In this document: positions 1 to 13,859 of the stretch, piece after piece
How positions within the stretch are numbered: the stretch's first letter is position 1
How the letters are laid out: every line of letters begins with the position of its first letter
From: Chloroflexota bacterium
GTDB lineage: Bacteria; Chloroflexota; Anaerolineae; Anaerolineales; Anaerolineaceae
Direction: 5' to 3'
DNA length: 64,000 nucleotides
Assembly (NCBI GenBank): GCA_012522475.1
Contig: JAAYKH010000030.1
Coordinates: forward strand, 22,063-86,062
Made by a program: the position numbers and the translations under genes
Notes under the pieces: generated by a model
What the model was told of the DNA's origin: nothing
Database searches by the model: none
The model's input: only the letters and a program-made list of their open reading frames with translations

Positions 1-750
1 GTCTTTATGCGCCACCTGGGCATTCAGTGCTGCCAGTTCGGGTTTTTGTTTTAGCAAGGCAATGATCTCAGCGAGTGAAAACTCGGTTGAGGGCTCAAAA
101 TACTTATAAATCTGTTTAATCAAAGCAAAATCTTCAGGTGTATCCACCGTCAGGCGGTATTGACTTAAATCTGGTTCATGCTGAAACACCACAACCTTGA
201 AATACCCTTCTCGCTGATAGAAATAGGGCATGACATGTTCCCGTTCATGTTTTTGGTCAGCCTCGTGCCAGGCACGCGCCAGGTTATCAAGGTTCACCAC
301 CTCGGTATCCATACCGATTGGCGTGGTACGCTTCCAGGGTGGGGGCAGGCGGTTGGCAGCAAAATCAACTTCAGCAGCGAAAAAGCCGCTCACTGTCGAA
401 TCAATCATCCGGGGGTCAATCACAGGACAGTCCCCGGTCAGCCTGACAATCGTTTTAGCATGAAACAACTGAGCTGCCCGGAAATACCGGTCCAGCACAT
501 CGTATGGGTCACCGCGAAAATAAGGGATGCCAAACGCCCGGCATACTTCAGCCACCCGGTCATCTTCCGGGCTGATTGTGGTCGCCACAACAACTTGCCC
601 CAGGGTGTTTGCCCTTCGAGCACGAATCACCTGCTGCACAAGCATTGGCTTTCCACAGATATCCATCAAAACCTTACCGGGCAAACGGCTGGACCCCATG
701 CGCGCCTGGATAATGGCAACAACTGAGGGATCACGTTTTGATATAAACAT
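1..750 (-). CDS. SpsF/PseF-type CMP-nonulosonic acid cytidylyltransferase (3' end runs off window)
   Basis: Not in the ORF track; translated manually from ATG at 750: MFISKRDPSVVAIIQARMGSSRLPGKVL...RLTGDCPVIDP...REHVMPY...YRLTVDTPEDF, typical of the SpsF/NeuA family. Open to position 1. Confidence 0.9.
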   Translation of the reverse strand, partial: MFISKRDPSVVAIIQARMGSSRLPGKVLMDICGKPMLVQQVIRARRANTLGQVVVATTISPEDDRVAEVCRAFGIPYFRGDPYDVLDRYFRAAQLFHAKTIVRLTGDCPVIDPRMIDSTVSGFFAAEVDFAANRLPPPWKRTTPIGMDTEVVNLDNLARAWHEADQKHEREHVMPYFYQREGYFKVVVFQHEPDLSQYRLTVDTPEDFALIKQIYKYFEPSTEFSLAEIIALLKQKPELAALNAQVAHKD

Positions 751-757
751 CGAACCT

Positions 758-1420
758 TCACTCCAGATCTTCAACCCGCAAAGAAGCGACGATGGCATCG
801 TAATTAGAGAGCTGCCCGGTTACTTCCTGCTGATCAGCATTGAACGCTACCAGGTATAACACACCTGATTCTTTAAACACATATGCTACCTGGGTAAGCT
901 CCAGCCCGGCTTCATTGGTGAGGGTGATCCACCGTAAAGTGTCACGCCCGGCAATCGTCAACCGGGTTTCCTGGAGGATTTCAACATTGTATCCAATTAT
1001 CGGGCCCGCCAGGCTCGAAATCAGCCCTAAAGGCATGGCTGCGTAGGTCTCATTTTTGATGACGACAAAGCTGGTTGGAATGACTGCAGCAGTATCGGCA
1101 TCATAACCCCACACAAGAACATCCGCCTGAGTGCTTCCTAAAATTCCTCTCAGATCAGTATCAATAACATCGAGTTCTTCAACAAGGTCGGCCAGTTCAG
1201 CGATAGAGCCACCCACGTAATAAGAATCGGGCACATACAGGGTGATCGTTCCATCCTCAACAAGTCTCTTTTCCTCCCGGTAGCCTGCAGAGAGTGCAGT
1301 AACAGCGGGAACCTCTTCCGCCTGGCGCCGATATGGCAAATTACAGGCCATCCCGGCCAAAACCAATGCGAATATTACGAAAAGAAATGTATATTTTTTT
1401 ATCATTTTTCCGCTAATCAC
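758..1420 (-). CDS. Hypothetical lipoprotein
   Basis: Signal peptide with lipobox LAGMAC; no recognisable catalytic motif. Confidence 0.7.
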   Translation of the reverse strand: MISGKMIKKYTFLFVIFALVLAGMACNLPYRRQAEEVPAVTALSAGYREEKRLVEDGTITLYVPDSYYVGGSIAELADLVEELDVIDTDLRGILGSTQADVLVWGYDADTAAVIPTSFVVIKNETYAAMPLGLISSLAGPIIGYNVEILQETRLTIAGRDTLRWITLTNEAGLELTQVAYVFKESGVLYLVAFNADQQEVTGQLSNYDAIVASLRVEDLE

Positions 1421-1515
1421 AATTCTTCTTTGTTTGCCTGTATCAATTTACGTATTGCATTCTAATGCATTTGCACCTGTTTTGCTACAGACTTGTAATT
1501 ATCCTTTGCACATGA

Positions 1516-2619
1516 TTAACAGGCTGCTCTCCGGGCTAATTGATAGGCATCAAGTAATTTTGGGAAATTTAAAGTCCAATCTGCACGTTCTTCAGCCAGT
1601 TTCCTGGCACGCCTGCCATAAGCAGCCAGGTTCGAATCAGCAGCTAAAGCCAGGATTTTATCAGCCAGCGCATTTACATCGCCGGTGCTGAACAAATGGC
1701 CCACATCGCCGGGCCGGACCCATTCACGATTGCTGGGAATATCTGAAACCAGGGTCGGGCGTCCACAAGCCAGCGCTTCTAACAGGGAAACCGACGAGCC
1801 ATCACAGTGCGAAGCGCTGATAAATAGATCGCCAGCTCCATAAAAACCAGGTAAATCCTCCCGGGTGATTCGACCGGGAAAGTGCACGGCGTCGCCTACA
1901 GGCGCCAAAATCGCCCGAATTTGTTCAGATTGTGGGCCATCTCCAGCCAATAACAGTCTTAAATTGGGATTGCGCTGATAAGCCAGCACAAAGGCTTGCG
2001 CCAGTTCGTCAACGCCATAGGGGACAGACCAGGCACGGTTGCAAAAGAGAACAAAACCCTCTTCCCAGCCCAAAGACTGTCTAAGAGCCTGCCCGGCATT
2101 ATTTGCGTTCCGGGGTGAGAAATGATCTAAATCCACACCCCAGGGGAACAGGATCATTCGCTCATGCGGGAAGCCGTATCCAGCGGCTTGCTCAGCAACC
2201 GTCTGGCAGTCAGCGACCAGGACTGCGCTGCGTGCCAGAGCACAGCGTGTGGCCCATCGCATCCAGGGGCTGCGATCAGCATTACGCAGAAGGTCAAATC
2301 CCCAAGACATGCTTACCAGCGGTTGAAATTTCGCCAGTGCTGCTACTAAGGCCGGCCCCTGGATCGGTCCGGCATGGACCAAGTCTGGTTTTAAATCCAA
2401 CAGGATATCTTCCAGTTGTTTAATGCCTGCTTGCCAGCCATTCCAAAACGACCAATCTGGCTGATTGCCCCCCCAGGTTAATTCTTTAATTCCCTCAGGG
2501 GTCTTCGGTTGGCAGGTGTACATGCGCAGGCTGAACACCTGAAGTGTGGTTCCTGCCAGGGCGGATAAAAACCGTTGATCATGCGGACTATCCTGTGCCG
2601 TGAAGTAAAGAACCCGCAT
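1516..2619 (-). CDS. Glycosyltransferase family 4 (GT-B)
   Basis: C-terminal ADLFISASHCDGSSVSLLEALACGRP (E-x7-E-like) motif; SDIPSNREW. Confidence 0.9.
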   Translation of the reverse strand: MRVLYFTAQDSPHDQRFLSALAGTTLQVFSLRMYTCQPKTPEGIKELTWGGNQPDWSFWNGWQAGIKQLEDILLDLKPDLVHAGPIQGPALVAALAKFQPLVSMSWGFDLLRNADRSPWMRWATRCALARSAVLVADCQTVAEQAAGYGFPHERMILFPWGVDLDHFSPRNANNAGQALRQSLGWEEGFVLFCNRAWSVPYGVDELAQAFVLAYQRNPNLRLLLAGDGPQSEQIRAILAPVGDAVHFPGRITREDLPGFYGAGDLFISASHCDGSSVSLLEALACGRPTLVSDIPSNREWVRPGDVGHLFSTGDVNALADKILALAADSNLAAYGRRARKLAEERADWTLNFPKLLDAYQLARRAAC

Positions 2620-2661
2620 CAGATCTCAATCCTTTTGCTAAGCATGTCAAGGGTCGTTTGA

Positions 2662-3732
2662 CTACTCGCCAAATTGCGTCCATGACAAAGCCTGCCCGCC
2701 TGGTATGTGCACCAAAGCGGTTAACCCGATCACTTTGCCAATTTCATAAGGTAAAATCGCACCCGGTGTAGCTGGCCTGAGAATATCAATCATCTCTCGG
2801 GTTATGATCTCTCCCGGTTCGATTTCTCGGGCTGCCCGCAGGCAGCGTCGCTGGACAATGGCGGTCTCCTGCTCGTTAGCAGCAACAAACTTGTCCCCGG
2901 AGCCCATGGCGCGTTCAAGCTGACGGGTGGCTTTCACCATCGCATCCCAGGTTTCAGGGTTCATAGCAAAAGAATGATCCGGACCGACCCGGTCATTGTC
3001 ATCGGTGAAATGCTTTTCAATCACCCGCGCCCCCAGCGCCACCGCCCCTAGCACCGTCGCATGTCCATGTGTGTGATCCGATAGGCCCAATACAGCATCG
3101 GGGAACATGTTCCGGTAAGTATTGAGAACATTCAAGTGAATGCTATCGAAATTGCTATCTTCAGCAGTATAGTTGGTGTTACATTGCATCAATACCAGCT
3201 GTGGATTAATCTCTAAAATAGCATGTACCGCCCGCTGGACATCACCAATATCCGACGCACCAGTTGCCAGCAACACCGGTTTTCCTTTGCTGGCAATTCG
3301 CTCAACCGCTTCGATCCAGGTAATGTCGCCCGAGCCAATCTTATAAGCCGGCATATACGCATCCAGCCTATCGATAGCTTCAAAATCATAAGGCGACGAG
3401 AAATAATGAATCCCCACTTCATCACAGGTGGCTTTAAGTGCCGGCGTCCACTCAAAGGGAATTGAGGCATCTGCGTAAACTTCAGAAACCGACTTTTTCC
3501 ATTTGGCCTGATGAGAGACCTGGGCATTCATATGAGCAAAACCATAATCCGAAACGATCTTCTGTGCCTGGAAATTTTGAAACTTGGCAGCATCTGCACC
3601 AGCGTCTTTTGCCAAACGGATTAACAACTTGGCTCGTTCCAAACTGCCATCATGGTTGGCAGCAATATCGGCAATAAAATAGGTGGGGTGTGCCGCGCCT
3701 ATCAGGCGTTCAGCAATTTTCAGGTCCATCAT
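2662..3732 (-). CDS. N-acetylneuraminate/pseudaminate synthase family (NeuB/PseI/SpsE) with C-terminal SAF domain
   Basis: IADIAANHDG, AAKFQ, YKIGSGD, GLSDHT, IEKHFT motifs and SAF tail (RRCLRAAREI...LRP). Start placed after the GGAGG RBS. Confidence 0.93.
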   Translation of the reverse strand: MMDLKIAERLIGAAHPTYFIADIAANHDGSLERAKLLIRLAKDAGADAAKFQNFQAQKIVSDYGFAHMNAQVSHQAKWKKSVSEVYADASIPFEWTPALKATCDEVGIHYFSSPYDFEAIDRLDAYMPAYKIGSGDITWIEAVERIASKGKPVLLATGASDIGDVQRAVHAILEINPQLVLMQCNTNYTAEDSNFDSIHLNVLNTYRNMFPDAVLGLSDHTHGHATVLGAVALGARVIEKHFTDDNDRVGPDHSFAMNPETWDAMVKATRQLERAMGSGDKFVAANEQETAIVQRRCLRAAREIEPGEIITREMIDILRPATPGAILPYEIGKVIGLTALVHIPGGQALSWTQFGE

Positions 3733-3765
3733 GCCTCCCAATTAATGAATTGTTTTTTACCCTCA

Positions 3766-4683
3766 TCAAGCTGCAAATATTTGAAGTTTTCTCGGATAAC
3801 CTTCCTGCCAGCGCCGAAATAAACGTGCGATACCAGCGTTTATCGAGGGCAGCGGTCGACCAAGCGCAGCTTGAACTTTATCCGGGTTTAATGCCAGGTT
3901 TAAAGCACGAGGTGCGCCGCGTGTCAGTTCTTGCATCCGGACAGGCTCGATCAAATCAGTGCTGAAACCAAACTGTTCAGCAATCCGTAGGCCAAAATCA
4001 TATTTGCTTAAATGTTCCGGGCTGACCACATGAAAAAGACCCGACAGCTCAACCGCCAACATCTCCAACAGGATCTCTGCCAGGTCCTCCGTATACAGGG
4101 GGCTGAAATAGGTGTCCGTGAAACCTTTGATGGATTTTCCATCACGCAGGTTGTTGAAGAAAAATTCTGCCAGGCTGCGTTTTCCGGTCATGCTCCAACC
4201 AAAGAACACCACCCGGGCAATCACCGCATTAGGGTGCGCTTCATGAACGCGTTGTTCGCCTTCCAGATAAGTTTGGGCGTAAACGCTCAGGGGGTGGGTC
4301 GGCGCGTTTTCGTCATAGCCACCCGTAAAGCCATCAAAGACGGCATCTGTCGAAATATGGATCATTGGAATGCCCCAGCGTGCAGCAGCAGAAGCCAGTT
4401 CAGCGGGGACGTCCCGGTTCATCTGATGTGCCAGCTCGGGTTTGTTCTCTGCCAGGTTCAAATCGGCAATCGCCGCACAATGGATGATAGCTTCAGGCCT
4501 GGTTTTTTCAATCGTGACCAGTGCATCTGCTATTTTAAGCAGGTCGACAGAATAAGTATCAAACGGGACTTCACGCAGGTCATGTTGATTGGTTAAACCG
4601 CTTACCAGGTGGCCCTGGGCAGTCGCAACCAAGCAGAGATTCAAGCCCAAAAGTCCGCTGGCGCCCGTCACCAGCAAACGCAT
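3766..4683 (-). CDS. RmlD-like NAD(P)-dependent sugar-nucleotide 4-keto reductase (extended SDR)
   Basis: GASGLLG, IHISTDAVFDG, P-LSVYAQT. The usual YxxxK Lys reads as Y (YAQTYLEGE). Confidence 0.85.
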   Translation of the reverse strand: MRLLVTGASGLLGLNLCLVATAQGHLVSGLTNQHDLREVPFDTYSVDLLKIADALVTIEKTRPEAIIHCAAIADLNLAENKPELAHQMNRDVPAELASAAARWGIPMIHISTDAVFDGFTGGYDENAPTHPLSVYAQTYLEGEQRVHEAHPNAVIARVVFFGWSMTGKRSLAEFFFNNLRDGKSIKGFTDTYFSPLYTEDLAEILLEMLAVELSGLFHVVSPEHLSKYDFGLRIAEQFGFSTDLIEPVRMQELTRGAPRALNLALNPDKVQAALGRPLPSINAGIARLFRRWQEGYPRKLQIFAA

Positions 4684-4684
4684 A

Positions 4685-5689
4685 TTACAACTCCCCCAAA
4701 CTCAAACCAGTTTCGTTGCTGCTAACCATCGCCTGGATTTCTTCCACGGTCAGCCATTCGGTATTATTGTCACTGGCATAATGGACACCTTCTTCAAGTA
4801 GCGTTCCTTTTTTAGACCAGTCATAACCAAACCACAATGCAGCTTGCGGCTGAACCACATACATATCTTCCAGTTCAACCGTAGAGCGTGCTTCATCCTC
4901 CGAAATCAGCACTTCATGCAGTTTTTCACCCGGGCGTATGCCGATGTTGCGAACTTTCGCTTCCGGGGCAATAGCTTTGGCCAGGTCTGTCATCTTCATG
5001 CTGGGAATTTTAGGTACAAACACCTCACCGCCCTGCATCGTTTCAATGCAGCGGATCACAAACCGCACGCCCTGTTCAAGAGAAATCCAAAAACGGGTCA
5101 TGCGATCATCGGTAAGGGTGATTTCACCTTTTTCCCGCTGTTGGATGAATAACGGCACCACACTGCCTCGTGATCCGACAACATTGCCATAGCGTACACA
5201 GCTGAAACGTGTAGCACGACCGCCGGCATAAGCATTACTCTGAATCATCAACTTCTCGGCTGCCAGCTTGGTAGCGCCGTACAGATTAATCGGGTTAACA
5301 GCCTTATCCGTACTGAGCGCAAGGACTTTCTTAACCCCCGCATCAAGGGCTGCATCTACCACATTACTGCTTCCTAAAATATTTGTTTTAACGGCTTCCA
5401 TCGGGTTATATTCGCAGGCCGGCACCTGTTTGAGCGCTGCCGCGTGAACCACCAGGTCCACACCATTTAAGGCACGGTGCAAGCGGTCCAGATCACGTAC
5501 ATCACCAATAAAATAACGTAATTTAGGATGGTTAAACCCGGACATGCGCATCTCGTGCTGTTTGAGTTCATCTCGGCTGTAAATAATTAACCTGGCCGGG
5601 TTATATTCACTCATAATGACTTCAATAAATTTTTTGCCAAAAGAGCCCGTCCCACCGGTCACCAGTATGTGTTGCTTGGTCCAATCCAT
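4685..5689 (-). CDS. pseB: UDP-N-acetylglucosamine 4,6-dehydratase (inverting)
   Basis: GGTGSFG, IIYSRDELKQ, HAAALKQVPACEYNP, LSTDKAVNPINLYGATK, RYGNVVGSRGSV, MTRFWI, GIRPGEKLHE. Confidence 0.93.
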   Translation of the reverse strand: MDWTKQHILVTGGTGSFGKKFIEVIMSEYNPARLIIYSRDELKQHEMRMSGFNHPKLRYFIGDVRDLDRLHRALNGVDLVVHAAALKQVPACEYNPMEAVKTNILGSSNVVDAALDAGVKKVLALSTDKAVNPINLYGATKLAAEKLMIQSNAYAGGRATRFSCVRYGNVVGSRGSVVPLFIQQREKGEITLTDDRMTRFWISLEQGVRFVIRCIETMQGGEVFVPKIPSMKMTDLAKAIAPEAKVRNIGIRPGEKLHEVLISEDEARSTVELEDMYVVQPQAALWFGYDWSKKGTLLEEGVHYASDNNTEWLTVEEIQAMVSSNETGLSLGEL

Positions 5690-5717: not shown

Positions 5718-6641
5718 TTATACTTCAGATGCGTTTTTTAGCGCTCCCTCAGTCGGCTTGCTGATCAGGATCAGCGGATATTGCCCAATCCGGCCTAATA
5801 GCCTGGGAAAGCATTCTTCCAACCAAAAGATGATTTTCAGCCAGAACTTACCACCCCAATCCGGGTAAATCACAGATCGCAAGAAGGCCACACTGACACT
5901 CCGCCAGACCAGGATTTCAAAGGGTATCTTCTCGGAAAGCAGCTCGATCAAGCCGTCAGCGTCAAATTTCTCCACAAACGTCCCCGCTGGTGAAGGTGGT
6001 CCCACCGGCTGCGCTTTTTCAAGAGCTTTATCAGCCAAGTTCTCAGGCTCGATATCCTCAGCCCCTGCTTGATTGGCCCTTTCATCTCGCCAGGCTCGCA
6101 GACGCTTAATGTAATTCATAAATCTAGCCAGGCCAATCATCAAGGGTGCACGGGTCCAACCATCCACCACCACCATCTGCTGTCCAGGTTTTAGCACACG
6201 GTAAAGCCCCTCGAAAGCCATAAGCTTTTCCCCCAGGGGGACGTGATGAATCGTATGCAAAGCTGAAACACCATCAAAGATTTCCGATTCAAAGGGTAGG
6301 TGAGCGATATCGCCCACCACGTAAAATCCATGTGCGCCCACACGCTTGCGCGCTTCCCTGAGGGCAACAATCGAAATGTCCATGCAAACCCGCGTCCGGT
6401 AGCCTTCAGAATAAGTCAGGTATTCCGGGTATTGAACCGGTCCGGATCCCGCATCCAGATAATATATTCCCTTTTGAGCCAGGTGGCGTTTGACTCGCAT
6501 ATGACAGCGGTGCAGATATTCCTGTGAAACCGGGCGTAAATCCTCATATTGGGCATTCTGATACAGGGTTTCGCCAATGGATTGCCAGCCAACCCGGTTG
6601 TAAAATTCTCGCACAGTCTGTTTAATATGCTCTTCATTCAT
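5718..6641 (-). CDS. Class I SAM-dependent methyltransferase
   Basis: YLDAGSGP motif I, VGDIAHLPF, LHTIHH, YRVLKPG. Start trimmed to MNEEHIK. Confidence 0.85.
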   Translation of the reverse strand: MNEEHIKQTVREFYNRVGWQSIGETLYQNAQYEDLRPVSQEYLHRCHMRVKRHLAQKGIYYLDAGSGPVQYPEYLTYSEGYRTRVCMDISIVALREARKRVGAHGFYVVGDIAHLPFESEIFDGVSALHTIHHVPLGEKLMAFEGLYRVLKPGQQMVVVDGWTRAPLMIGLARFMNYIKRLRAWRDERANQAGAEDIEPENLADKALEKAQPVGPPSPAGTFVEKFDADGLIELLSEKIPFEILVWRSVSVAFLRSVIYPDWGGKFWLKIIFWLEECFPRLLGRIGQYPLILISKPTEGALKNASEV

Positions 6642-6699
6642 GTTGGAAGTAAATACCAGCTTTCTCAAAAAGTATTGGCCGATCGCACAAATCGTTCAT

Positions 6700-8283
6700 T
6701 CACCAGGTCAGTGGTACGCCGGTCAGAGCATCAAAGGTCTGGCCGTATTTTTGTTCACCTTCATCGCTCAACACATACACCATGGGGTAGGTGTGAATAT
6801 CCTTTTTCAAGTCCAAAAGATGCCAGGGAAAGGGCTTCGGGAAGGCAAAGAAAAACAAATAAGCATAACGCCAGGCCAGTTCAACCTGCTCCTGGTTCAA
6901 CCGGGCAGAGGAAAGATCGGCCAGTTTTTCGTCCAGGCTCGAAAAATACATCTCCCAGGTTTCAGGGTCCGTGGTAAACCCGCGGCTCCGGTAATGGGTT
7001 TTGCCAGCAACGATCACAGGGATACCAACCATGGCCGCTTCTAAGCCAACCGTGGTGGAATATACCAGCACCAAGCTGGCGATATCTAAAATATCATAGG
7101 TGTTGACCTTAGCCTGGGCTTCAACCAGGTGAAAATGCTCCGGAAACTCACCAACTGCTTTTTCAACAATGGAAGCCATAGAGGTACCATGCATTAACTG
7201 TTCACCTGGATGCAAACGAATAATTAGTTGTACATCATCACGATCTGAAAAATAACGCAAAGTGCGTACAACCCACTCCTTCATGCTATCGCTAAATTTC
7301 TGTCGCCCCAAGGTTAAACTGTCGCCAAGCACATTGGAAGCCAGCAAAACGATTGGGCGGTCATCAAGGTTGAGGGCTTTCTTCACAGCCGCGCTGCCCT
7401 GGGTGGCTGTTTCCTGCCACTGACGGGTGAAGTTCTGCCAGGTTTTCGAATTCACCCGGGCGGCATACAGGTCGCGCAATGGGTTCAATTGTGCCTCAGT
7501 CAGGGCATCCTTCCCACGTGCTGCCCAAAGTGCGTCTGTATTATTTTTCATGATCTCGGAATCCTGAGCCAGCCAAATACGTTCGCGCTGTTCACTGAAT
7601 TCGAAGGTCACCGTTTGCAAGCCCAAATTCTGTGCAACCTGGTAAACCATACCCATCTCCTGGATGCTGCCATTGGGGACAACAACCACATCAGGTTGAT
7701 AGGTCATCAGCCAGGCGCGTGCATTCAACGCGGCTTCCCGATTGCGCTTGACCCGCTCTTGAAAAAGCGGTTCTTGTTTGTCAATATCCTCCACCTGGAG
7801 TGCGTATTGAGCATCAAAAATACTCACCTGCTCAACAGCCTGTTCCAATTCTGGCGGTAAATGTTTCGAAAAAGGCTTGACATTCAAAAGCGACTGTACC
7901 TTTAAAACCCTGCCCGCCGGGCTGAGTACATCCCGAGCATAAAGGTTTTGGCGTCGCAGATCAAATCTATCAATTGGTTCATCCCAGCTGGCATAGGGCA
8001 TAAAGGACAGAGTCACCTGGTGGCCTCGTCCAGCCAAAGCAACACCCAGTAAAGCCGCATATTCAATCCAATAATGCAGGGTCGCAAAAATAAATACCTT
8101 ATTACCGGTTTCCCGCTGCTGGCGTGCTTCCTCAGCTTGTTGAACCGCTTCGGGGAGCACAGATTCCAAAAGGTTCAGTTTAAAATGTGCCTCCCAGGGC
8201 TTATGGCGCTGCACCAGGTGCCAGTAAAGTTCAGCTGTATAGGGCAGTTGCCCCAGTATTTTCTTAACACTGCACCGCTTCAT
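6700..8283 (-). CDS. Capsule polysaccharide biosynthesis-type protein (KpsS/Capsule_synth-like), candidate ulosonic-acid transferase
   Basis: C-terminal LASNVLGDS...IIRLHPGE...VYSTTVGLEAAMVGIPVIVAG pattern; located in the glycan operon. Confidence 0.6.
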   Translation of the reverse strand: MKRCSVKKILGQLPYTAELYWHLVQRHKPWEAHFKLNLLESVLPEAVQQAEEARQQRETGNKVFIFATLHYWIEYAALLGVALAGRGHQVTLSFMPYASWDEPIDRFDLRRQNLYARDVLSPAGRVLKVQSLLNVKPFSKHLPPELEQAVEQVSIFDAQYALQVEDIDKQEPLFQERVKRNREAALNARAWLMTYQPDVVVVPNGSIQEMGMVYQVAQNLGLQTVTFEFSEQRERIWLAQDSEIMKNNTDALWAARGKDALTEAQLNPLRDLYAARVNSKTWQNFTRQWQETATQGSAAVKKALNLDDRPIVLLASNVLGDSLTLGRQKFSDSMKEWVVRTLRYFSDRDDVQLIIRLHPGEQLMHGTSMASIVEKAVGEFPEHFHLVEAQAKVNTYDILDIASLVLVYSTTVGLEAAMVGIPVIVAGKTHYRSRGFTTDPETWEMYFSSLDEKLADLSSARLNQEQVELAWRYAYLFFFAFPKPFPWHLLDLKKDIHTYPMVYVLSDEGEQKYGQTFDALTGVPLTW

Positions 8284-8289
8284 CGTTAT

Positions 8290-9573
8290 TTATCTTTCAA
8301 CCTTCCCAATCTTCCATGCCAATTTTGGCCGAACCGGTCCAAGGCGTGGTTCAGGCCATTGCGTTCCAGGTGCGCCAGTAGCGTCTACAGTGAATGTAAG
8401 CGCCTTATCGTCCTGAAAATAGCGTTGAATACGATAAGTACTGGCGTTAACACCCAGTATGTAGCGGCCTTCATTCATTAAATCTGGCGGGATTTCACAA
8501 CGACTGATATAGCGTCCCGGGCCGCGGTTCACGTATCTGTCATACAACCGAGCATCGTCCGTATCAAAGCTGGTGAATACAAATTCACCCCGGGTGGTCA
8601 TCATATAAATGCCTACCCGTAATCCGCTGATCTCTTTAGTCAGCTGATAAACCAACTCGATTGAAAAGCCCTCTGCAGCGTTAACAGTATCGACCACTTC
8701 CCCAGCCGGGTTTAATACCCGCAGCGCCACAGGAACAAAGTCAGCGCCATGTAAAATATACGGGTCTTGGTCCCAGTAACGTTCACCTTGTTTTGTCAGC
8801 CCCATATTCAGGTAATGATCCACCGCATCAGGTGTTGGCGCGCGCATCACCATTTTCCCCTGATCAAGAACAATCGTCTCTTGCGTCAACCGCAGGATAG
8901 CAGACATATTATGGCTCACAAACAATACGGCACGGCCTTCCTGGGCCACATCACTCATCTTTCCCAGGCACTTGCGCTGAAATTCGGCATCGCCTACCGC
9001 CAACACTTCATCCACCACCAAAATTTCCGGTTCCAGGTGCGCAGCCACGGCAAAAGCCAACCGTAAATACATGCCGCTGGAGAAGCGCTTGACCGGCGTA
9101 TCGATAAATTTGGCAACTTCAGAAAATTCAACAATTTCGTCGAATTTGCGGTCGATCTCTTCTCGGCGCATACCGAGGATGGCGCCATTCAGGTAGATAT
9201 TCTCCCGACCGGAGAGTTCGGGGTGAAACCCCGTGCCCACCTCCAACAGCGAGCCCACCCGTCCGCGAATCTCGCCAAAGCCAAGCGTGGGATCAGTGAC
9301 CCGCGAGAGAATTTTCAGCAAGGTACTCTTGCCAGCGCCATTCCGACCCACAATGCCCAGCACCTGGCCGCGTTCAACCTCAAAACTGATGTCCTTCAAC
9401 GCCCAAATATACGAAGGGCTGTCATCACGTCCAGTGCTACGTCGTGTAAACAGCCGGCCCGCTCGCTTGACGCTGGTTGTCAGTACATCTCTCAACGTGT
9501 CGGGGCGCTCTTGCAACATCCCAATACGGTACTGTTTGGAGATATTTTCTAAACGAATAACAGGTTCAGGCAT
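8290..9573 (-). CDS. wzt: Polysaccharide ABC exporter ATP-binding subunit with C-terminal Wzt_C domain
   Basis: GRNGAGKST Walker A, LLEVGTGFHPELSGREN, FSSGMYLRLAFAVA, VVDEVLAVGD; extra C-terminal domain of ~170 aa. Confidence 0.93.
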   Translation of the reverse strand: MPEPVIRLENISKQYRIGMLQERPDTLRDVLTTSVKRAGRLFTRRSTGRDDSPSYIWALKDISFEVERGQVLGIVGRNGAGKSTLLKILSRVTDPTLGFGEIRGRVGSLLEVGTGFHPELSGRENIYLNGAILGMRREEIDRKFDEIVEFSEVAKFIDTPVKRFSSGMYLRLAFAVAAHLEPEILVVDEVLAVGDAEFQRKCLGKMSDVAQEGRAVLFVSHNMSAILRLTQETIVLDQGKMVMRAPTPDAVDHYLNMGLTKQGERYWDQDPYILHGADFVPVALRVLNPAGEVVDTVNAAEGFSIELVYQLTKEISGLRVGIYMMTTRGEFVFTSFDTDDARLYDRYVNRGPGRYISRCEIPPDLMNEGRYILGVNASTYRIQRYFQDDKALTFTVDATGAPGTQWPEPRLGPVRPKLAWKIGKVER

Positions 9574-9579
9574 AAATTC

Positions 9580-10440
9580 CTATACAATATCGGCAAAGGT
9601 TTTTTCCATCCGCCGAAAATAATATAAACCGCTTACCAACAAGATCAACACCACCCCGGCAGAGATCAACATGGTCATATCGGGCGGTTCTGTACCCAAC
9701 AATGCCCAGCGAAATCCCTGAATCACCCCTACCATAGGGTTCAACCCATATAATAACCGCCAGGGGCCTGCCGGGATAATATCAATGGGGTAAACAATCG
9801 GAGAAGCATACATCCAAACCTGGATGATGAAGGGCACCATGTGCTGCACATCGCGATATTGCACATTCAACGCCGAAAGCCAGAGCCCAACGGCCAACGC
9901 GGTCAACAACGCCAGCAGGATAATCGGCAACAGCCACAGGTTATTCAGACTGGGCCAATGTCGATAGTAAATCATCACCCCCAGCAGAACCAGAAAAGAT
10001 ACTAAAAAATCCACCAGAGCTGCAAAAACTGTCGACAAAGGAATGGCGAGCCTGGGAAAGTAGATTTTGGTGATCAGGTTGGCATTTCCAACCAGGCTGA
10101 CACTCGACCGCTGCAAGGCCGTGGCAAACAACTGCCAGGGAAGCAGTGCAGACAGGGCAAATAATGGATAGGGCAGATTTTGGGAGGGTGTCTTTAACAA
10201 AATGCCAAAAATCATCGTGAAGATCAACACGGTTAATAATGGCTGCAGCAAAGCCCAGCTAACCCCCAGAATAGCCTGCTTGTACCGCACTTTGATATCA
10301 CGCCAGGTAAGGAAAAAGATCAACTCGCGATAACGCCATAGCTCTCGCAGGTCAAGCCCCAGCCAACCCTTTGCCGGACGCAGAAAGATCACAGGGGTCT
10401 GGTCTTTATTTTCTCGGGTAATTTCCGTCAACTTACACAA
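9580..10440 (-). CDS. wzm: Polysaccharide ABC-2 exporter permease
   Basis: RDIKVRYKQAILG, NLITKIYFPR, YRDVQH, LNPMVGVIQGFRWAL. Confidence 0.93.
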   Translation of the reverse strand: MCKLTEITRENKDQTPVIFLRPAKGWLGLDLRELWRYRELIFFLTWRDIKVRYKQAILGVSWALLQPLLTVLIFTMIFGILLKTPSQNLPYPLFALSALLPWQLFATALQRSSVSLVGNANLITKIYFPRLAIPLSTVFAALVDFLVSFLVLLGVMIYYRHWPSLNNLWLLPIILLALLTALAVGLWLSALNVQYRDVQHMVPFIIQVWMYASPIVYPIDIIPAGPWRLLYGLNPMVGVIQGFRWALLGTEPPDMTMLISAGVVLILLVSGLYYFRRMEKTFADIV

Positions 10441-11394
<954 letters not shown>

Positions 11395-11846: not shown

Positions 11847-13859
11847 TTATTTAATTTTATCAATCGGTTTTGGGGCCAGGAGGGATATCTGACCATCATC
11901 GGCAGTAAACACAATCTCATAATACCGATCTATTGGCTTGGCAACGTATTTAACCCATGCATTATTTTCTTCAGCAAAAGGCTTTGTTTGATCTTTTAAT
12001 CCCAAGTGCAGGGGGCTAACAACAATCAAATCAAAGCGTTGTGTTTGGATATCGTTTTGGAATCTTTCTATATACGGCTCATTTTCTGACATTGCCATTT
12101 CCATCAAGAACACTTTCTCATATTCTGGCACCAATTTCACGCCCTCAATCAAACCAAAGGTGAGCAGATGGCGATCTTCGATGAAGAGCACTTCACCAGC
12201 TTCTTGAGTTCTTTGCTCGATTAATACTTGCATCTGTTCTATAACTTGCCAAGCCTTCGTTAAATCTGGGGTTGGATAAGGCCTCAAGGCATTGACGGTA
12301 AACAGAATTGGCAGTAACACAGCCAATAATATCAGTGTTAAAGGTGGATTCATCCGGGTCAATCGGGTCGGGTCATCTGCCGAAAACTGGTTAAATAGAA
12401 CGTAGACAGCCGTTACTGCCAGGAAAACCAGAAAAGCATCCAAATTGTGCAGGTTATTTCCCCCGCCGATCTTTGTGCTGACAACCAGGCCGGCAATTAA
12501 TAAAGCGGCGTGCAGGGTTAACAAAGCCAATAATCGCAGCGGTCGCCAAGCTTGTTTTGCAGTTAATACTCGCCAAAGGATGATAACAAACGCTGGTACA
12601 CTGGCAATCAACAACAGGTTGATTATACCCATGCCATAGGCTTCGTTTGGAAATAAGCGATAGATTAGTAACGGTGATTTAAAACTGGTAACAAAATCTT
12701 CTGCCGGTCGTCCGCTGAGAAAAATATAAGCCAGCGATGATCCAAATGCAATCAGCAAGCCTGAAAATGCAGTCAACACCGGCCAAAGCCAGTATTCCCA
12801 AAAGGATTGTTCATTGAGCGGTTTTTCTAAAATGTACATTGTGGCTGCCAGCATACCTGCCACGGGGAACCAGTTAACACGGCTGAAACCAGCCCATAAG
12901 GATGCCAACACCATTATAAAAAACGACCAGACAAGCTTATCCTTATTAAAGCCTAGCAATACAATAATGATGACTACCATCAAGTGAAAATAAACCGGGC
13001 CTTGAAAGGTAAACAGAGAAAACCAGGCAACAACACCCAGACCAATCCAAAAGTTTGCGGGTTTAATTCTTCTACTTAAAGCAATCCCCCCCGCCAGTGT
13101 CAATCCAATCCACAGCAATACTTGCCAAAGGCGATGACCCCATAACCCCAAACCTGGAATTAGAAATGCAGCAGATTGCATTAAATATCTTGAGGGATGC
13201 AAGGATGACCATGGCACCCGAAAACCATAAATCCTTTGTGAGAAAAATAAAGATGCATCATAAAACCATGTAGTTTCTGACCAGCCGATAGAAAATGGAT
13301 AAGCTTGAATATCAGGAATCCAGTACAGCACCCAAATTGCCAACCCGCACAGGCTGAAACCACCGATTAACGCCGATAAAGGTTTAACTCTTCCAGTGCC
13401 AATCAGCATCAGTGCACACAGCAGACTTAAATGCCCCAAAATAAAAAACTGCATCTGCTGATTCTGGAAGAGAAAAGATCCCTCAAAAAGGGTATGGTAG
13501 ATCAATAAGAAGATCAGAATTGTTACCAGCAACCAGTTTATAAAGCCCAGCTTTTTGAAGAGCTGGATTATTTTACGAGCAAATCGTATTGCTTGCACAC
13601 CAATACGTTGCTCTAGTAAAAATAGGCCTACCAATAAGGTCAGGGCATAAAGAAGTCCCGGCGACAATCTGACTAACATACTCCCCGAAAAACCCAGAAC
13701 AGACCCCAGCCCATAGGTTGCCAACAACGATGGTAAAACACTGATAAGAGTAACCAGTAAAGCCAAGAGGAGATAAACCCGCAGAATTGTCAATTGGCTC
13801 AGTTGAGGGCTTTCTGATGATGCGTTATTATGCAAGTTGATTTTATTCAGAAGAGGCAT
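11847..13859 (-). CDS. Multi-pass membrane protein, GT-C-like glycosyltransferase candidate
   Basis: Many hydrophobic segments; SIGWSETTWFYDAS loop; soluble C-terminal domain; sits in the glycan locus. Confidence 0.5.
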   Translation of the reverse strand: MPLLNKINLHNNASSESPQLSQLTILRVYLLLALLVTLISVLPSLLATYGLGSVLGFSGSMLVRLSPGLLYALTLLVGLFLLEQRIGVQAIRFARKIIQLFKKLGFINWLLVTILIFLLIYHTLFEGSFLFQNQQMQFFILGHLSLLCALMLIGTGRVKPLSALIGGFSLCGLAIWVLYWIPDIQAYPFSIGWSETTWFYDASLFFSQRIYGFRVPWSSLHPSRYLMQSAAFLIPGLGLWGHRLWQVLLWIGLTLAGGIALSRRIKPANFWIGLGVVAWFSLFTFQGPVYFHLMVVIIIVLLGFNKDKLVWSFFIMVLASLWAGFSRVNWFPVAGMLAATMYILEKPLNEQSFWEYWLWPVLTAFSGLLIAFGSSLAYIFLSGRPAEDFVTSFKSPLLIYRLFPNEAYGMGIINLLLIASVPAFVIILWRVLTAKQAWRPLRLLALLTLHAALLIAGLVVSTKIGGGNNLHNLDAFLVFLAVTAVYVLFNQFSADDPTRLTRMNPPLTLILLAVLLPILFTVNALRPYPTPDLTKAWQVIEQMQVLIEQRTQEAGEVLFIEDRHLLTFGLIEGVKLVPEYEKVFLMEMAMSENEPYIERFQNDIQTQRFDLIVVSPLHLGLKDQTKPFAEENNAWVKYVAKPIDRYYEIVFTADDGQISLLAPKPIDKIK

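What the first reader, a model, noticed from the sequence alone, without database searches (positions are those of the whole stretch)
1..5689. Nonulosonic-acid pathway with a ketoreductase where the PseC aminotransferase normally sits
Seen: pseB is followed at 1 bp by an RmlD-like reductase, then a NeuB/PseI synthase, a GT4, a lipoprotein and an SpsF-type cytidylyltransferase. No DegT/PseC aminotransferase or PseH acetyltransferase lies in this stretch. Known: PseB makes a UDP-4-keto-6-deoxy-HexNAc that PseC aminates, giving the 7-amino group of pseudaminic acid. Inference: reducing the 4-keto group instead would give a 5-acylamino-3,5,9-trideoxy-nonulosonic acid with a 7-OH (fusaminic-acid-like), a rare sugar. 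The reductase also has YxxxY in place of the SDR YxxxK, so its chemistry may be atypical or that residue may be an error.
Basis: partly seen in the sequence, partly recalled or inferred. Interest (0 to 1): 0.6.

Follow-up and report, generated by a model that had tools for sequence, protein, structure and literature searches.

The report
Amination-free sialic-acid-like sugar gene set
This sludge bacterium (Anaerolineales) carries a conserved but uncharacterised gene set that looks like the pseudaminic-acid pathway with a reductase in place of the amino-adding enzymes, so it probably makes a rare one-nitrogen, 9-deoxy sialic-acid-like sugar; the odd Tyr in the reductase occurs only in this assembly, not in the enzyme family.

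Summary
On the minus strand lie PseB (4685-5689), an RmlD-like reductase 1 bp downstream (3766-4683), a NeuB+SAF synthase (2662-3741), a GT4 (1516-2619), a small secreted protein and a cytidylyltransferase. There is no DegT, PseH or PseG here.

Nothing in the genome reaches the PseC, PseG or PseH cut-offs, and the only NeuC-like hit is a non-hydrolysing WecB. The three DegT genes sit on other contigs in unrelated contexts. No DegT lies within 10 kb of the reductase in 80 related loci.

Canonical PseC-PseG-PseI clusters in other Anaerolineae were found by the same searches. The synthase forms its own clade. It lacks the PseI Phe/Ser signature and co-occurs with the reductase in 13 of 13 genomes among 301 sampled.

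The best reading (about 0.55) is an amination-free route to a 7-hydroxy, 9-deoxy nonulosonic acid. A KpsC-like transferase would add it to a Wzm/Wzt-exported glycan. Stereochemistry is unknown and the UDP-sugar hydrolase is unidentified, with GT4 as the candidate.

The YxxxY motif is not a family trait. All 80 genomic relatives and a 96%-identical homologue have Lys. Three other metagenomes read AAA at that codon, and the likely source run has no contig there.

This scan has noted the same cassette on other genomes (26 notes hold the search words).

The parts
9580..10440 (-). Wzm, ABC-2 permease of the glycan exporter
   Evidence: PF01061 E = 8.5e-24, with Wzm/KpsM-type NCBIfam hits. It is first in the conserved gene order.
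8290..9573 (-). Wzt, the exporter ATPase, with a C-terminal Wzt_C glycan-binding domain
   Evidence: PF00005 plus PF14524 (Wzt_C, residues 284-399). Best NCBIfam hits are TagH and Wzt.
6700..8283 (-). p527, a KpsC/KpsS-like GT-B protein. It is the candidate CMP-ulosonic-acid transferase that adds the sugar to the glycan.
   Evidence: PF05159 Capsule_synth E = 1e-6. R356, H358, P359 and E361 (an HP motif) are invariant in 17 homologues. The AF2 model has pLDDT 92. The best structural matches are the KpsC beta-Kdo transferases 6MGB (Z 15.8, rmsd 4.5 over 287 residues) and 6MGD (Z 15.5), then WbbB 5FA0 (Z 13.0). The Atlas neighbours are Capsule_synth clusters.
5718..6668 (-). SAM-dependent methyltransferase (MT316). 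It probably tailors or caps the glycan.
   Evidence: PF08241 E = 7e-15. It is present in most related loci but absent from the minimal modules of distant families.
4685..5689 (-). PseB, the inverting UDP-GlcNAc 4,6-dehydratase
   Evidence: TIGR03589 scores 505 against a cut-off of 408, whereas FnlA scores 254 against 730. It scores 391 bits to H. pylori FlaA1 2GN4.
3766..4683 (-). Red, an RmlD-family NAD(P)H 4-ketoreductase paralogue, the proposed replacement for PseC and PseH
   Evidence: PF04321 E = 1.4e-55. It falls below the rmlD equivalog cut-off, 181 against 224. The true RmlD and RmlC are on contig C6. It co-occurs with the NeuB-A clade.
4267..4269 (-). Codon 139 of Red: TAT (Tyr), where the family has the catalytic Lys
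   Evidence: Searches show the codon. Lys stands here in 80 of 80 related loci and in the 96%-identical P0002. Runs X2-X4 read TTT on the + strand, which is AAA Lys. The best-holder run X1 has no contig over 4248-4388.
2662..3741 (-). NeuB-A, a nonulosonic-acid synthase of a distinct clade (NeuB + SAF domains)
   Evidence: PF03102 and PF08666 match. It falls below both equivalog cut-offs: NeuB 271 against 400, PseI 239 against 340. Its signature is IADI, KIGSGD and QCNTNY, whereas eight bona fide PseI read KIASFE and KCTSAYP. The clade has 100/100 support and a stem of 1.41.
1516..2619 (-). GT4-fold protein. It is either a glycosyltransferase or the functional stand-in for the missing UDP-sugar hydrolase PseG.
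   Evidence: GT4 Pfam domains match. It lies next to NeuB-A even in the minimal modules of distant families. It has D-x7-E in place of E-x7-E. The hydrolase role is inference only.
758..1420 (-). p220, a small secreted or lipoprotein-like protein. It is poorly conserved and probably accessory.
   Evidence: No family hit even at E = 5. Identity in relatives is only 19-62%, and it is often absent.
1..798 (-). CMPs, a CTP_transf_3 (SpsF/KdsB-like) cytidylyltransferase and the proposed CMP-sugar synthetase. Its last 9 codons lie before window position 1.
   Evidence: PF02348 E = 1e-31. PseF scores 41 against a cut-off of 206. It is conserved in the module.

Best explanation
The stretch is the sugar-making core of a Wzm/Wzt-exported surface-glycan locus shared by Anaerolineales.

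Proposed route:
1. PseB turns UDP-GlcNAc into UDP-2-acetamido-2,6-dideoxy-L-arabino-hexos-4-ulose. The enzyme's family membership is shown here; its activity is not tested.
2. The RmlD-like reductase reduces the 4-keto group instead of PseC aminating it. This gives a UDP-6-deoxy-HexNAc such as 6-deoxy-L-AltNAc (inferred).
3. UDP is removed by an enzyme not yet identified. The adjacent GT4-fold protein is the best candidate (inferred).
4. The NeuB-A synthase condenses the free sugar with PEP. The product would be a 5-acetamido-3,5,9-trideoxy-non-2-ulosonic acid with a 7-OH (inferred).
5. The CTP_transf_3 enzyme makes the CMP-sugar.
6. The KpsC-like p527 transfers it to the glycan.

A Gfo/Idh/MocA oxidoreductase that travels with the module may set or invert a stereocentre.

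The Tyr at the catalytic Lys position of the reductase is an assembly error or a strain-level change in this MAG. It is not a different chemistry.
For: Identity of the parts:
- PseB passes its equivalog cut-off and is close to H. pylori FlaA1.
- Red is an RmlD paralogue. The real rml genes are on contig C6.

Absence of the canonical enzymes:
- Nothing in the genome reaches the PseC, PseG or PseH cut-offs, and the only NeuC-like hit is a non-hydrolysing WecB. The genome is 98.6% complete.
- The three DegT genes lie elsewhere. One is beside FdtA/GT2/GtrA, one beside a GH4 and a BadF-type ATPase, and one beside unrelated genes.
- No DegT lies within 10 kb of Red in 80 related loci.
- The best PseC-like gene, DegT_C14, is widespread in the class. 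It is missing from 5 of the 8 sampled genomes of the neighbouring family (f2), all of which carry the cluster; one of those five is a complete single-contig genome.
- PseG is absent from 5 cluster-bearing genomes, two of them single-contig.

Positive control:
- Five Anaerolineae genomes with bona fide PseI all have PseC and PseG over cut-off on the same contig, PseG next to PseI and PseC 2-5 kb away.

Coupling of Red and NeuB-A:
- Among 301 sampled genomes, NeuB-A orthologues (61% identity or more) occur in 13. All 13 also have Red, and every other NeuB homologue is at most 39% identical.
- PseB-Red-NeuB-GT4-GFO-CMPs stays contiguous in one distant family, and PseB-Red-NeuB-GT4 in a second whose contig ends there; in both, Red is only 35-36% identical.

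Distinctness of the synthase:
- NeuB-A is a separate clade.
- It lacks the Pse-specific Phe and Ser (discriminating positions taken from PMC7371886).

Transfer step:
- p527 resembles CMP-Kdo-dependent KpsC and WbbB and keeps an HP motif. The motif's role in binding the CMP-sugar is described in PMC2169525.

Chemical precedent:
- The F. nucleatum 25586 O-antigen contains both L-6dAltNAc and a 5-amino-3,5,9-trideoxy-nonulosonic acid (PMC13014188).
Against: - No product has been detected. The whole case rests on gene content, synteny and phylogeny.
- The step that releases the sugar from UDP has no assigned enzyme.
- NeuB-A has Gly (as in Neu and Leg enzymes) where PseI has Phe at the C2-specificity position. 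Its substrate may therefore not be L-altro configured.
- A variant lineage has the NeuB-A orthologue (65% identical) directly after a DegT aminotransferase. The clade therefore does not always go without an amination step.
- Every cluster-bearing genome checked has at least one DegT gene somewhere, so a trans-acting aminotransferase cannot be strictly excluded.
- In this assembly the reductase lacks its catalytic Lys.
Confidence: 0.55

Rival explanations
1. PseB and Red only make a UDP-6-deoxy-HexNAc (for example 6-deoxy-L-AltNAc or a relative). A glycosyltransferase such as GT4 puts that sugar directly into the glycan. NeuB-A and the cytidylyltransferase act on an unrelated sugar such as ManNAc or mannose.
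For: - RmlD-like 4-reductases acting on UDP-4-keto-6-deoxy-L-HexNAc as donor-sugar enzymes are known. An example is WbvR in the L-RhaNAc pathway (from my own knowledge).
- No UDP-sugar hydrolase is present.
- NeuB-A has the Gly typical of manno-type substrates.
- The whole locus is syntenic, so adjacency alone is weak evidence.
- In L073 the PseB-Red pair ends the cluster, with no NeuB within 10 kb.
Against: - Red and NeuB-A co-occur 13 of 13 and stay adjacent across distant families, while other genes come and go.
- There is no NeuC-type enzyme to supply free ManNAc, since the only 2-epimerase is a non-hydrolysing WecB.
- A second synthase with a phosphatase already covers a Kdn- or Neu-type sugar.
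- NeuB-A fails the NeuB equivalog cut-off.
- The genome of L073 does have NeuB-A on another contig.
Confidence: 0.25
2. This is an ordinary pseudaminic or legionaminic-type pathway. Its aminotransferase, acetyltransferase and hydrolase are encoded elsewhere in the genome, and Red has a side role.
For: - PseB is a true orthologue.
- An unlinked DegT scores 301 bits to PseC.
- All cluster-bearing genomes checked hold at least one DegT.
- A variant lineage links a DegT to NeuB-A.
Against: - No PseC, PseG or PseH reaches its cut-off in the genome.
- The same searches find all of them beside PseI in other Anaerolineae.
- The distribution of DegT_C14 is uncoupled from the cluster.
- NeuB-A lacks the PseI signature and clade.
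Confidence: 0.08
3. In this particular strain the K139Y change is real and the reductase is dead, so the module is decaying here even though it works in relatives.
For: - The codon is TAT in the assembly.
- A second defect lies nearby: an in-frame TAA in the fcl-like gene at 10687-10689.
Against: - All other genes of the locus are intact.
- Three changed bases within four letters, at about 4x word depth in the Logan assembly, together with a gap in that independent assembly of the best-holder run exactly over this place, fit an assembly or strain-mixing artefact.
Confidence: 0.1

Closest known systems
CMP-pseudaminic acid pathway (PseB, PseC, PseH, PseG, PseI, PseF) of Helicobacter pylori and Campylobacter jejuni
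   Same: - It starts with an orthologous inverting UDP-GlcNAc 4,6-dehydratase.
- It ends with a NeuB-family synthase and a cytidylyltransferase.
- The genes are clustered.
   Different: - PseC, PseH and PseG are absent from the whole genome, and an RmlD-like reductase sits after PseB.
- The synthase is outside the PseI clade and lacks its Phe/Ser signature.
- The cytidylyltransferase is SpsF/KdsB-like, not PseF.
- The predicted product has one nitrogen and a 7-OH.
[quoted passage not shown]
   Same: It is the only described natural sugar of the predicted class (5-amino, 7-hydroxy, 9-deoxy). It occurs next to the sugar expected from reducing the PseB product.
   Different: - It is known only as a chemical structure. 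I found no paper on its genes.
- The stereochemistry and N-acyl group of the sugar made here are unknown.
- I could not reach a Fusobacterium genome to compare loci.
UDP-L-RhaNAc / UDP-L-QuiNAc pathway (WbvB, WbvR, WbvD) and UDP-L-FucNAc pathway (FnlA/B/C)
   Same: A UDP-GlcNAc 4,6-dehydratase is followed by a 4-ketoreductase, and WbvR is RmlD-like.
   Different: - The dehydratase here is PseB-type, not FnlA/WbvB-type (254 bits against a cut-off of 730).
- Those pathways have no NeuB synthase or cytidylyltransferase.
KpsC/KpsS and WbbB beta-Kdo transferases in ABC-transporter-dependent glycan systems
   Same: - p527 has their fold and an HP motif.
- It sits beside Wzm and a Wzt that carries a glycan-binding C-terminal domain.
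   Different: - Sequence similarity is marginal (E about 0.25 to KpsC).
- The protein is larger, at 527 aa.
- The donor would be a CMP-nonulosonate rather than CMP-Kdo.

Membership tests
Canonical CMP-pseudaminic acid pathway | PseB inverting UDP-GlcNAc 4,6-dehydratase | tested here: met
   TIGR03589 scores 505 against a cut-off of 408. It scores 391 bits to FlaA1 2GN4.
Canonical CMP-pseudaminic acid pathway | PseC 4-aminotransferase | tested here: not met
   The best genome hit scores 296-301 against a cut-off of 423.5, on another contig. None lies in 80 related loci. As a positive control, PseC scores 462-495 bits on the same contig as PseI, 2-5 kb away, in 5 other Anaerolineae.
Canonical CMP-pseudaminic acid pathway | PseH N-acetyltransferase | tested here: not met
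   The best genome hit scores 59.7 against a cut-off of 93.1 and is unlinked.
Canonical CMP-pseudaminic acid pathway | PseG UDP-sugar hydrolase | tested here: not met
   No hit at E <= 0.01 in this genome or in 5 cluster-bearing relatives. As a positive control, PseG scores 224-245 bits in 5 PseI-bearing genomes.
Canonical CMP-pseudaminic acid pathway | PseI synthase (equivalog score, Phe/Ser signature, clade) | tested here: not met
   It scores 239 against a cut-off of 340. It has Gly and Thr where 8 PseI have Phe and Ser. It forms a separate clade with 100/100 support.
Canonical CMP-pseudaminic acid pathway | PseF cytidylyltransferase | tested here: not met
   TIGR03584 scores 41 against a cut-off of 206. 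The general CTP_transf_3 domain is present.
RmlD, dTDP-4-dehydrorhamnose reductase | Equivalog-level score and a role in an rmlABCD set | tested here: not met
   It scores 181 against a cut-off of 224. A true RmlD (296 bits) and RmlC (255 bits) lie on contig C6.
Extended SDR reductases | Catalytic Thr/Ser-Tyr-Lys triad | tested here: inconclusive
   T112 and Y135 are present. Position 139 is Tyr in this assembly but Lys in 80 of 80 relatives. Three other runs read AAA, and the source-like run has no contig there.
NeuB family (sialic/nonulosonic acid synthases) | NeuB TIM-barrel plus SAF domain with metal-binding His residues | tested here: met
   PF03102 E = 1e-71 and PF08666 E = 2e-8. The His of DHT and of KHFT align with H215 and H236 of N. 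meningitidis NeuB.
N-acetylneuraminate synthase (NeuB_NnaB equivalog) | Equivalog score plus a NeuC hydrolysing epimerase partner | tested here: not met
   It scores 271 against a cut-off of 400. The only Epimerase_2 protein is a non-hydrolysing WecB, 464 bits.
FnlA/WbvB-type L-HexNAc pathways | FnlA-type 4,6-dehydratase/5-epimerase | tested here: not met
   TIGR04130 scores 254 against a cut-off of 730.
ABC-transporter-dependent (Wzm/Wzt) glycan assembly | ABC-2 permease plus an ATPase with a Wzt_C domain in the same operon | tested here: met
   PF01061, PF00005 and PF14524 match. The pair is conserved at the head of the locus.
Retaining beta-Kdo transferases (KpsC/KpsS GT107, WbbB GT99), considered for p527 | GT-B fold closest to KpsC/WbbB, plus an HP motif | tested here: inconclusive
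   The top structural matches are KpsC at Z 15.8 and 15.5, and generic GT-B proteins follow at Z 14.0. The HP motif is invariant. Capsule_synth E = 1e-6. The donor sugar is untested.

The most novel reading that the evidence does not exclude
Anaerolineales build a lineage-wide envelope glycan that carries two different nonulosonic acids.
- One is a 7-hydroxy-9-deoxy sugar made by a reductase route. In that route a GT4-fold protein has taken over the UDP-sugar hydrolase role of PseG. The co-travelling Gfo/Idh/MocA oxidoreductase inverts a centre such as C4, giving the fusaminic (gluco) configuration.
- If so, this gene set would be the first genetic basis for fusaminic-type sugars and a new kind of nucleotide-sugar hydrolase.
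Probability: 0.2. Interest if true: 0.7.

Novelty: new variant of a known kind. Interest (0 to 1): 0.55.

Why it matters
Nonulosonic acids shape how microbes are recognised by phages, by immune lectins and by each other. Only the Neu, Leg and Pse routes have known genes. A reductase-based route would do three things:
- It would explain how one-nitrogen 9-deoxy sugars of the fusaminic type arise.
- It would give gene markers to find them in genomes.
- It would point to a characteristic surface sugar of Anaerolineales, abundant filamentous bacteria of anaerobic digesters and sludge whose envelope chemistry is almost unknown.

It also gives a short, testable enzyme set (PseB, Red, GT4, NeuB-A, cytidylyltransferase) for chemoenzymatic synthesis of such sugars.

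Tried and rejected
- I could not fetch the DNA of the 96%-identical homologue P0002 or the contexts of database hits.
- **Codon 139 in the source run.** Run X1, the best holder and probable source, has no Logan contig over 4248-4388. Codon 139 could therefore be neither confirmed nor refuted there.
- **Red as the cell's RmlD.** Rejected, because a bona fide rml set is on contig C6.
- **DegT_C14 as a trans-acting PseC.** Rejected on distribution.
- **p314 as the missing hydrolase.** This is the conserved 314-aa protein beyond position 1. Rejected, because its predicted fold and neighbours are GT-A/GT2-like.
- **p527 as a hydrolysing 2-epimerase.** It has a weak Epimerase_2 hit (E = 3e-4). Its model fits KpsC better than the 2-epimerases, Z 15.8 against about 11.
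- **GT4 as the hydrolase, tested by presence in the variant lineage.** Orthologues are present but unlinked in 4 of 5 genomes, which does not discriminate.
- **Literature.** Searches for a biosynthetic route to fusaminic acid, L-6dAltNAc or nonulosonic acids in Anaerolineae found no such paper.
- **Fusobacterium comparison.** I could not reach a Fusobacterium genome with the tools left.
- **Reference sequences in the tree.** PDB reference sequences (NmNeuB, CjPseI, BsSpsE) could not be put in the tree, because only tool-delivered sequences may be used. PseI references were taken from Anaerolineae genomes by HMM cut-off instead.

Full report
**What is there**

The window is G000:C85:22063-86062 of a 2.26-Mb, 89-contig, 98.6%-complete genome. 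Its closest relatives are Brevefilum and Anaerolineaceae MAGs from digesters and sludge.

All genes of the finding lie on the minus strand:
- Wzm, 9580-10440.
- Wzt with a Wzt_C domain, 8290-9573.
- A 527-aa Capsule_synth-like protein (p527), 6700-8283.
- A methyltransferase, 5718-6668.
- PseB, 4685-5689.
- An RmlD-like reductase (Red), 3766-4683, starting 1 bp after the PseB stop.
- A NeuB+SAF synthase (NeuB-A), 2662-3741.
- A GT4, 1516-2619.
- A 220-aa secreted-type protein, 758-1420.
- A CTP_transf_3 cytidylyltransferase, 1-798, which ends 27 nt before the window starts.

PseB is a real orthologue. It passes the TIGR03589 cut-off (505 against 408) and scores 391 bits to H. pylori FlaA1, against about 230 to the CapE/FnlA type. 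Red is RmlD-family but below the rmlD cut-off. NeuB-A is below both the NeuB and the PseI cut-offs.

**Beyond position 1**

The contig continues for 22 kb before the window.

Downstream of the cytidylyltransferase come, in order:
- a 571-aa membrane protein;
- a methyltransferase;
- a 314-aa protein with a GT-A-like predicted fold;
- a GT2;
- a Gfo/Idh/MocA oxidoreductase;
- a CotH/LRR gene on the other strand.

After those lies a second nonulosonate module:
- an SDR;
- a cytidylyltransferase fused to a KdsC-type phosphatase;
- a 291-aa NeuB without a SAF domain, 32% identical to NeuB-A;
- a second Capsule_synth-like protein.

No DegT-family gene lies on this contig, and no PseH- or PseG-like gene was found in the flanks examined.

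Genome-wide results:
- PseC: best hit 296-301 bits against a cut-off of 423.5.
- PseG: no hit.
- PseH: best hit 60 against 93.
- The single Epimerase_2 protein is a non-hydrolysing WecB.

The three DegT genes are on other contigs. One sits with FdtA, a GT2 and GtrA. One sits with a GH4 and a BadF-type ATPase. One has unrelated neighbours.

**Conservation**

The reductase family is large and well conserved. A scan of species-representative genomes returned 80 loci, all Anaerolineae.

Most of the longer loci share most of this order: Wzm-Wzt-p527-MT-PseB-Red-NeuB-GT4-(p220)-CMPs-(p571)-MT-p314-GT2-GFO-SDR-CMPs/phosphatase-NeuB2. None of them has a DegT within 10 kb of Red.

In a sample of 301 Anaerolineae genomes:
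- Red homologues occur in 14 genomes.
- NeuB-A orthologues (61% identity or more) occur in 13.
- All 13 genomes with NeuB-A also have Red.
- The one Red-only genome is 87% complete, and its Red sits at a contig end.
- Every other NeuB homologue is at most 39% identical.

In two distant families Red is only 35-36% identical. In one (L108) the module is still contiguous as Wzt-PseB-Red-NeuB-GT4-GFO-CMPs. In the other (L109) Wzm-Wzt-PseB-Red-NeuB-GT4 runs to the contig end. PseB, Red, NeuB-A and GT4 therefore travel together as a unit, with GFO and CMPs where the contig allows, independent of the rest of the locus.

**Controls**

The same HMM searches work in this class.
- Eight sampled genomes carry a PseI over the cut-off.
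- In the five checked, PseC (462-495 bits) and PseG (224-245 bits) lie on the same contig as PseI: PseG adjoins it and PseC is 2-5 kb away.
- None of those eight genomes has Red.

The best PseC-like gene of this genome, DegT_C14, has orthologues in many families without the module. It is missing at E <= 1e-60 from 5 of the 8 sampled genomes of the neighbouring family (f2), all of which carry the module; one of those five is a single-contig genome. PseG is also absent from five module-bearing genomes, two of them single-contig.

Red is not the cell's RmlD. A true RmlD (296 bits) and RmlC (255 bits) are on contig C6.

**The synthase**

A maximum-likelihood tree of 37 NeuB homologues puts NeuB-A in a clade with 100/100 support on a long stem (1.41). 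It is apart from the PseI clade (100/100) and from the NeuB2 clade.

A published structural comparison names two discriminating positions (PMC7371886). At those positions the eight PseI read K-I-A-S-F-E and K-C-T-S-A-Y-P, with Phe and Ser. NeuB-A reads K-I-G-S-G-D and Q-C-N-T-N-Y, with Gly and Thr. NeuB-A also has Asp where the others have the conserved Glu of I-A-E-I.

The same signature is seen in about 16 of the top 50%-identity cluster representatives worldwide.

The Gly is typical of Neu and Leg enzymes. The substrate's C2 configuration may therefore differ from the L-altro sugar of the Pse route. This is a caveat on the stereochemistry, not on the class of product.

**The YxxxY motif**

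The motif is real in this assembly (codon TAT at 4267-4269), but it is not a family trait.
- Lys is present in 119 of 120 database homologues, including one that is 96% identical.
- Lys stands at this position in 80 of 80 genomic relatives.
- Contigs of three other metagenome runs from different studies carry close relatives that read TTTT where the window reads ATAA at 4267-4270. On the minus strand that is ACA AAA (Thr-Lys) instead of ACT TAT.
- The best-holder run, 100% identical elsewhere and probably the source, has no contig across 4248-4388. Word depth there is about 4.

Three changed letters within four at such a spot fit an assembly or strain-mixing error at least as well as a real mutation. 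If the change is real, it would probably cripple the enzyme rather than alter its chemistry.

A second blemish lies nearby. The fcl-like gene (10441-11394) has an in-frame TAA at 10687-10689.

**The transfer and export side**

p527 and its paralogue beyond the window share an invariant R-x-H-P-x-E. The HP motif binds the CMP-sugar in bacterial sialyltransferases (PMC2169525).

An AlphaFold model of p527 has pLDDT 92. Its best matches are:
- KpsC beta-Kdo transferases, Z 15.8 and 15.5 at rmsd 4.4-4.5;
- generic GT-B enzymes, Z 14 or lower at rmsd 7-9;
- WbbB, Z 13.0.

This fits a CMP-ulosonate transferase placed beside a Wzt that carries a glycan-binding domain. The margin over generic GT-B folds is small.

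**Mechanism proposed**

- Shown: the family identities of the parts, the absence of PseC, PseH and PseG, the coupling of Red with a distinct NeuB clade, and the conservation of the module.
- Inferred: Red reduces the 4-keto product of PseB, UDP is then removed, NeuB-A condenses the 6-deoxy-HexNAc with PEP, and the result is a 5-acetamido-3,5,9-trideoxy-nonulosonate with a 7-OH. This is then CMP-activated and transferred.

The GT4-fold protein always flanks NeuB-A, much as PseG flanks PseI. It is the best candidate for the hydrolase, but nothing here tests that.

The only known natural sugar of this class is the fusaminic-type acid of F. nucleatum 25586. It occurs with L-6dAltNAc, the sugar expected from reducing the PseB product (PMC13014188). 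By my reading of the configurational names, that acid is the C4 epimer of the Pse skeleton. The co-travelling Gfo oxidoreductase could supply such an inversion, but this is speculation.

**Complications**

- A variant lineage (L036, L046, L050, L076) has p527-PseB-(GT2)-Red-GFO-CMPs.
- In two of its genomes (G002 and G005) the NeuB-A orthologue lies elsewhere, directly after a generic DegT that scores 212 bits to PseC. Some members of the clade may therefore use an aminated substrate.
- In L073 the cluster ends after Red, and NeuB-A is on another contig.
- Every module-bearing genome checked has at least one DegT somewhere.

**Comparison with what is known, and novelty**

The module works like a Pse pathway with the middle replaced. 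It fails five of the six membership tests for that pathway. It is also not an FnlA/WbvB-type L-HexNAc pathway.

I found no paper on the genes for fusaminic-type sugars, or on nonulosonic acids in Anaerolineae. I rate it a new variant of a known kind.

Earlier notes of this scan describe the same cassette on other genomes (26 notes hold the search words) and reach the same reading. I saw them only after forming mine. They are not independent evidence.

Specific to this window:
- the strain-only K139Y change;
- the two-module layout;
- the explicit PseI-versus-NeuB-A signature, with in-class positive controls.

Noticed in passing
L004:6100-10695 (= G000:C85:8199-12794, before window position 1): There is a second, different nonulosonate module in the same locus. 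It holds an SDR, a cytidylyltransferase fused to a KdsC-type phosphatase, a 291-aa NeuB without a SAF domain, and a second KpsC-like protein (535 aa). It looks like a Kdn- or Neu-9-phosphate type route, so the glycan may carry two nine-carbon acids.
   Followed up: partly
L004:11215-14169 (+): A 984-aa CotH-kinase/LRR/Fn3-associated protein is inserted on the opposite strand between the Gfo oxidoreductase and the SDR. In most relatives those two genes are adjacent, so this is a strain- or genus-specific insertion.
   Followed up: no
window 10441-11394 (-): A GDP-L-fucose-synthase-like gene (Fcl, 211 bits) is split by an in-frame TAA at 10687-10689. The reading frame continues with the conserved C-terminal part. 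It is either a pseudogene or an assembly error.
   Followed up: partly
L106:8058-10415 (G002:C9) and L107:90-2351 (G005:C28): In a variant Anaerolineales lineage the NeuB-A orthologue (65% identical) sits directly after a DegT aminotransferase and away from PseB-Red. This hints at an aminated version of the sugar in those genomes.
   Followed up: partly
L004:591-1265 (-): A third CTP_transf_3 cytidylyltransferase (224 aa; PseF 78 bits, below the cut-off) lies further along the same contig.
   Followed up: no
window 11847-13859 (-): A 670-aa polytopic membrane protein with no Pfam hit lies just upstream of the glycan locus. It may be a GT-C-like or polymerase-type protein.
   Followed up: no
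L094:5599-8620 (G000:C78): There is a separate small sugar module of GtrA, DegT, FdtA and GT2. It looks like a 3-amino-3,6-dideoxyhexose route onto a polyprenyl carrier and is unrelated to the finding.
   Followed up: no
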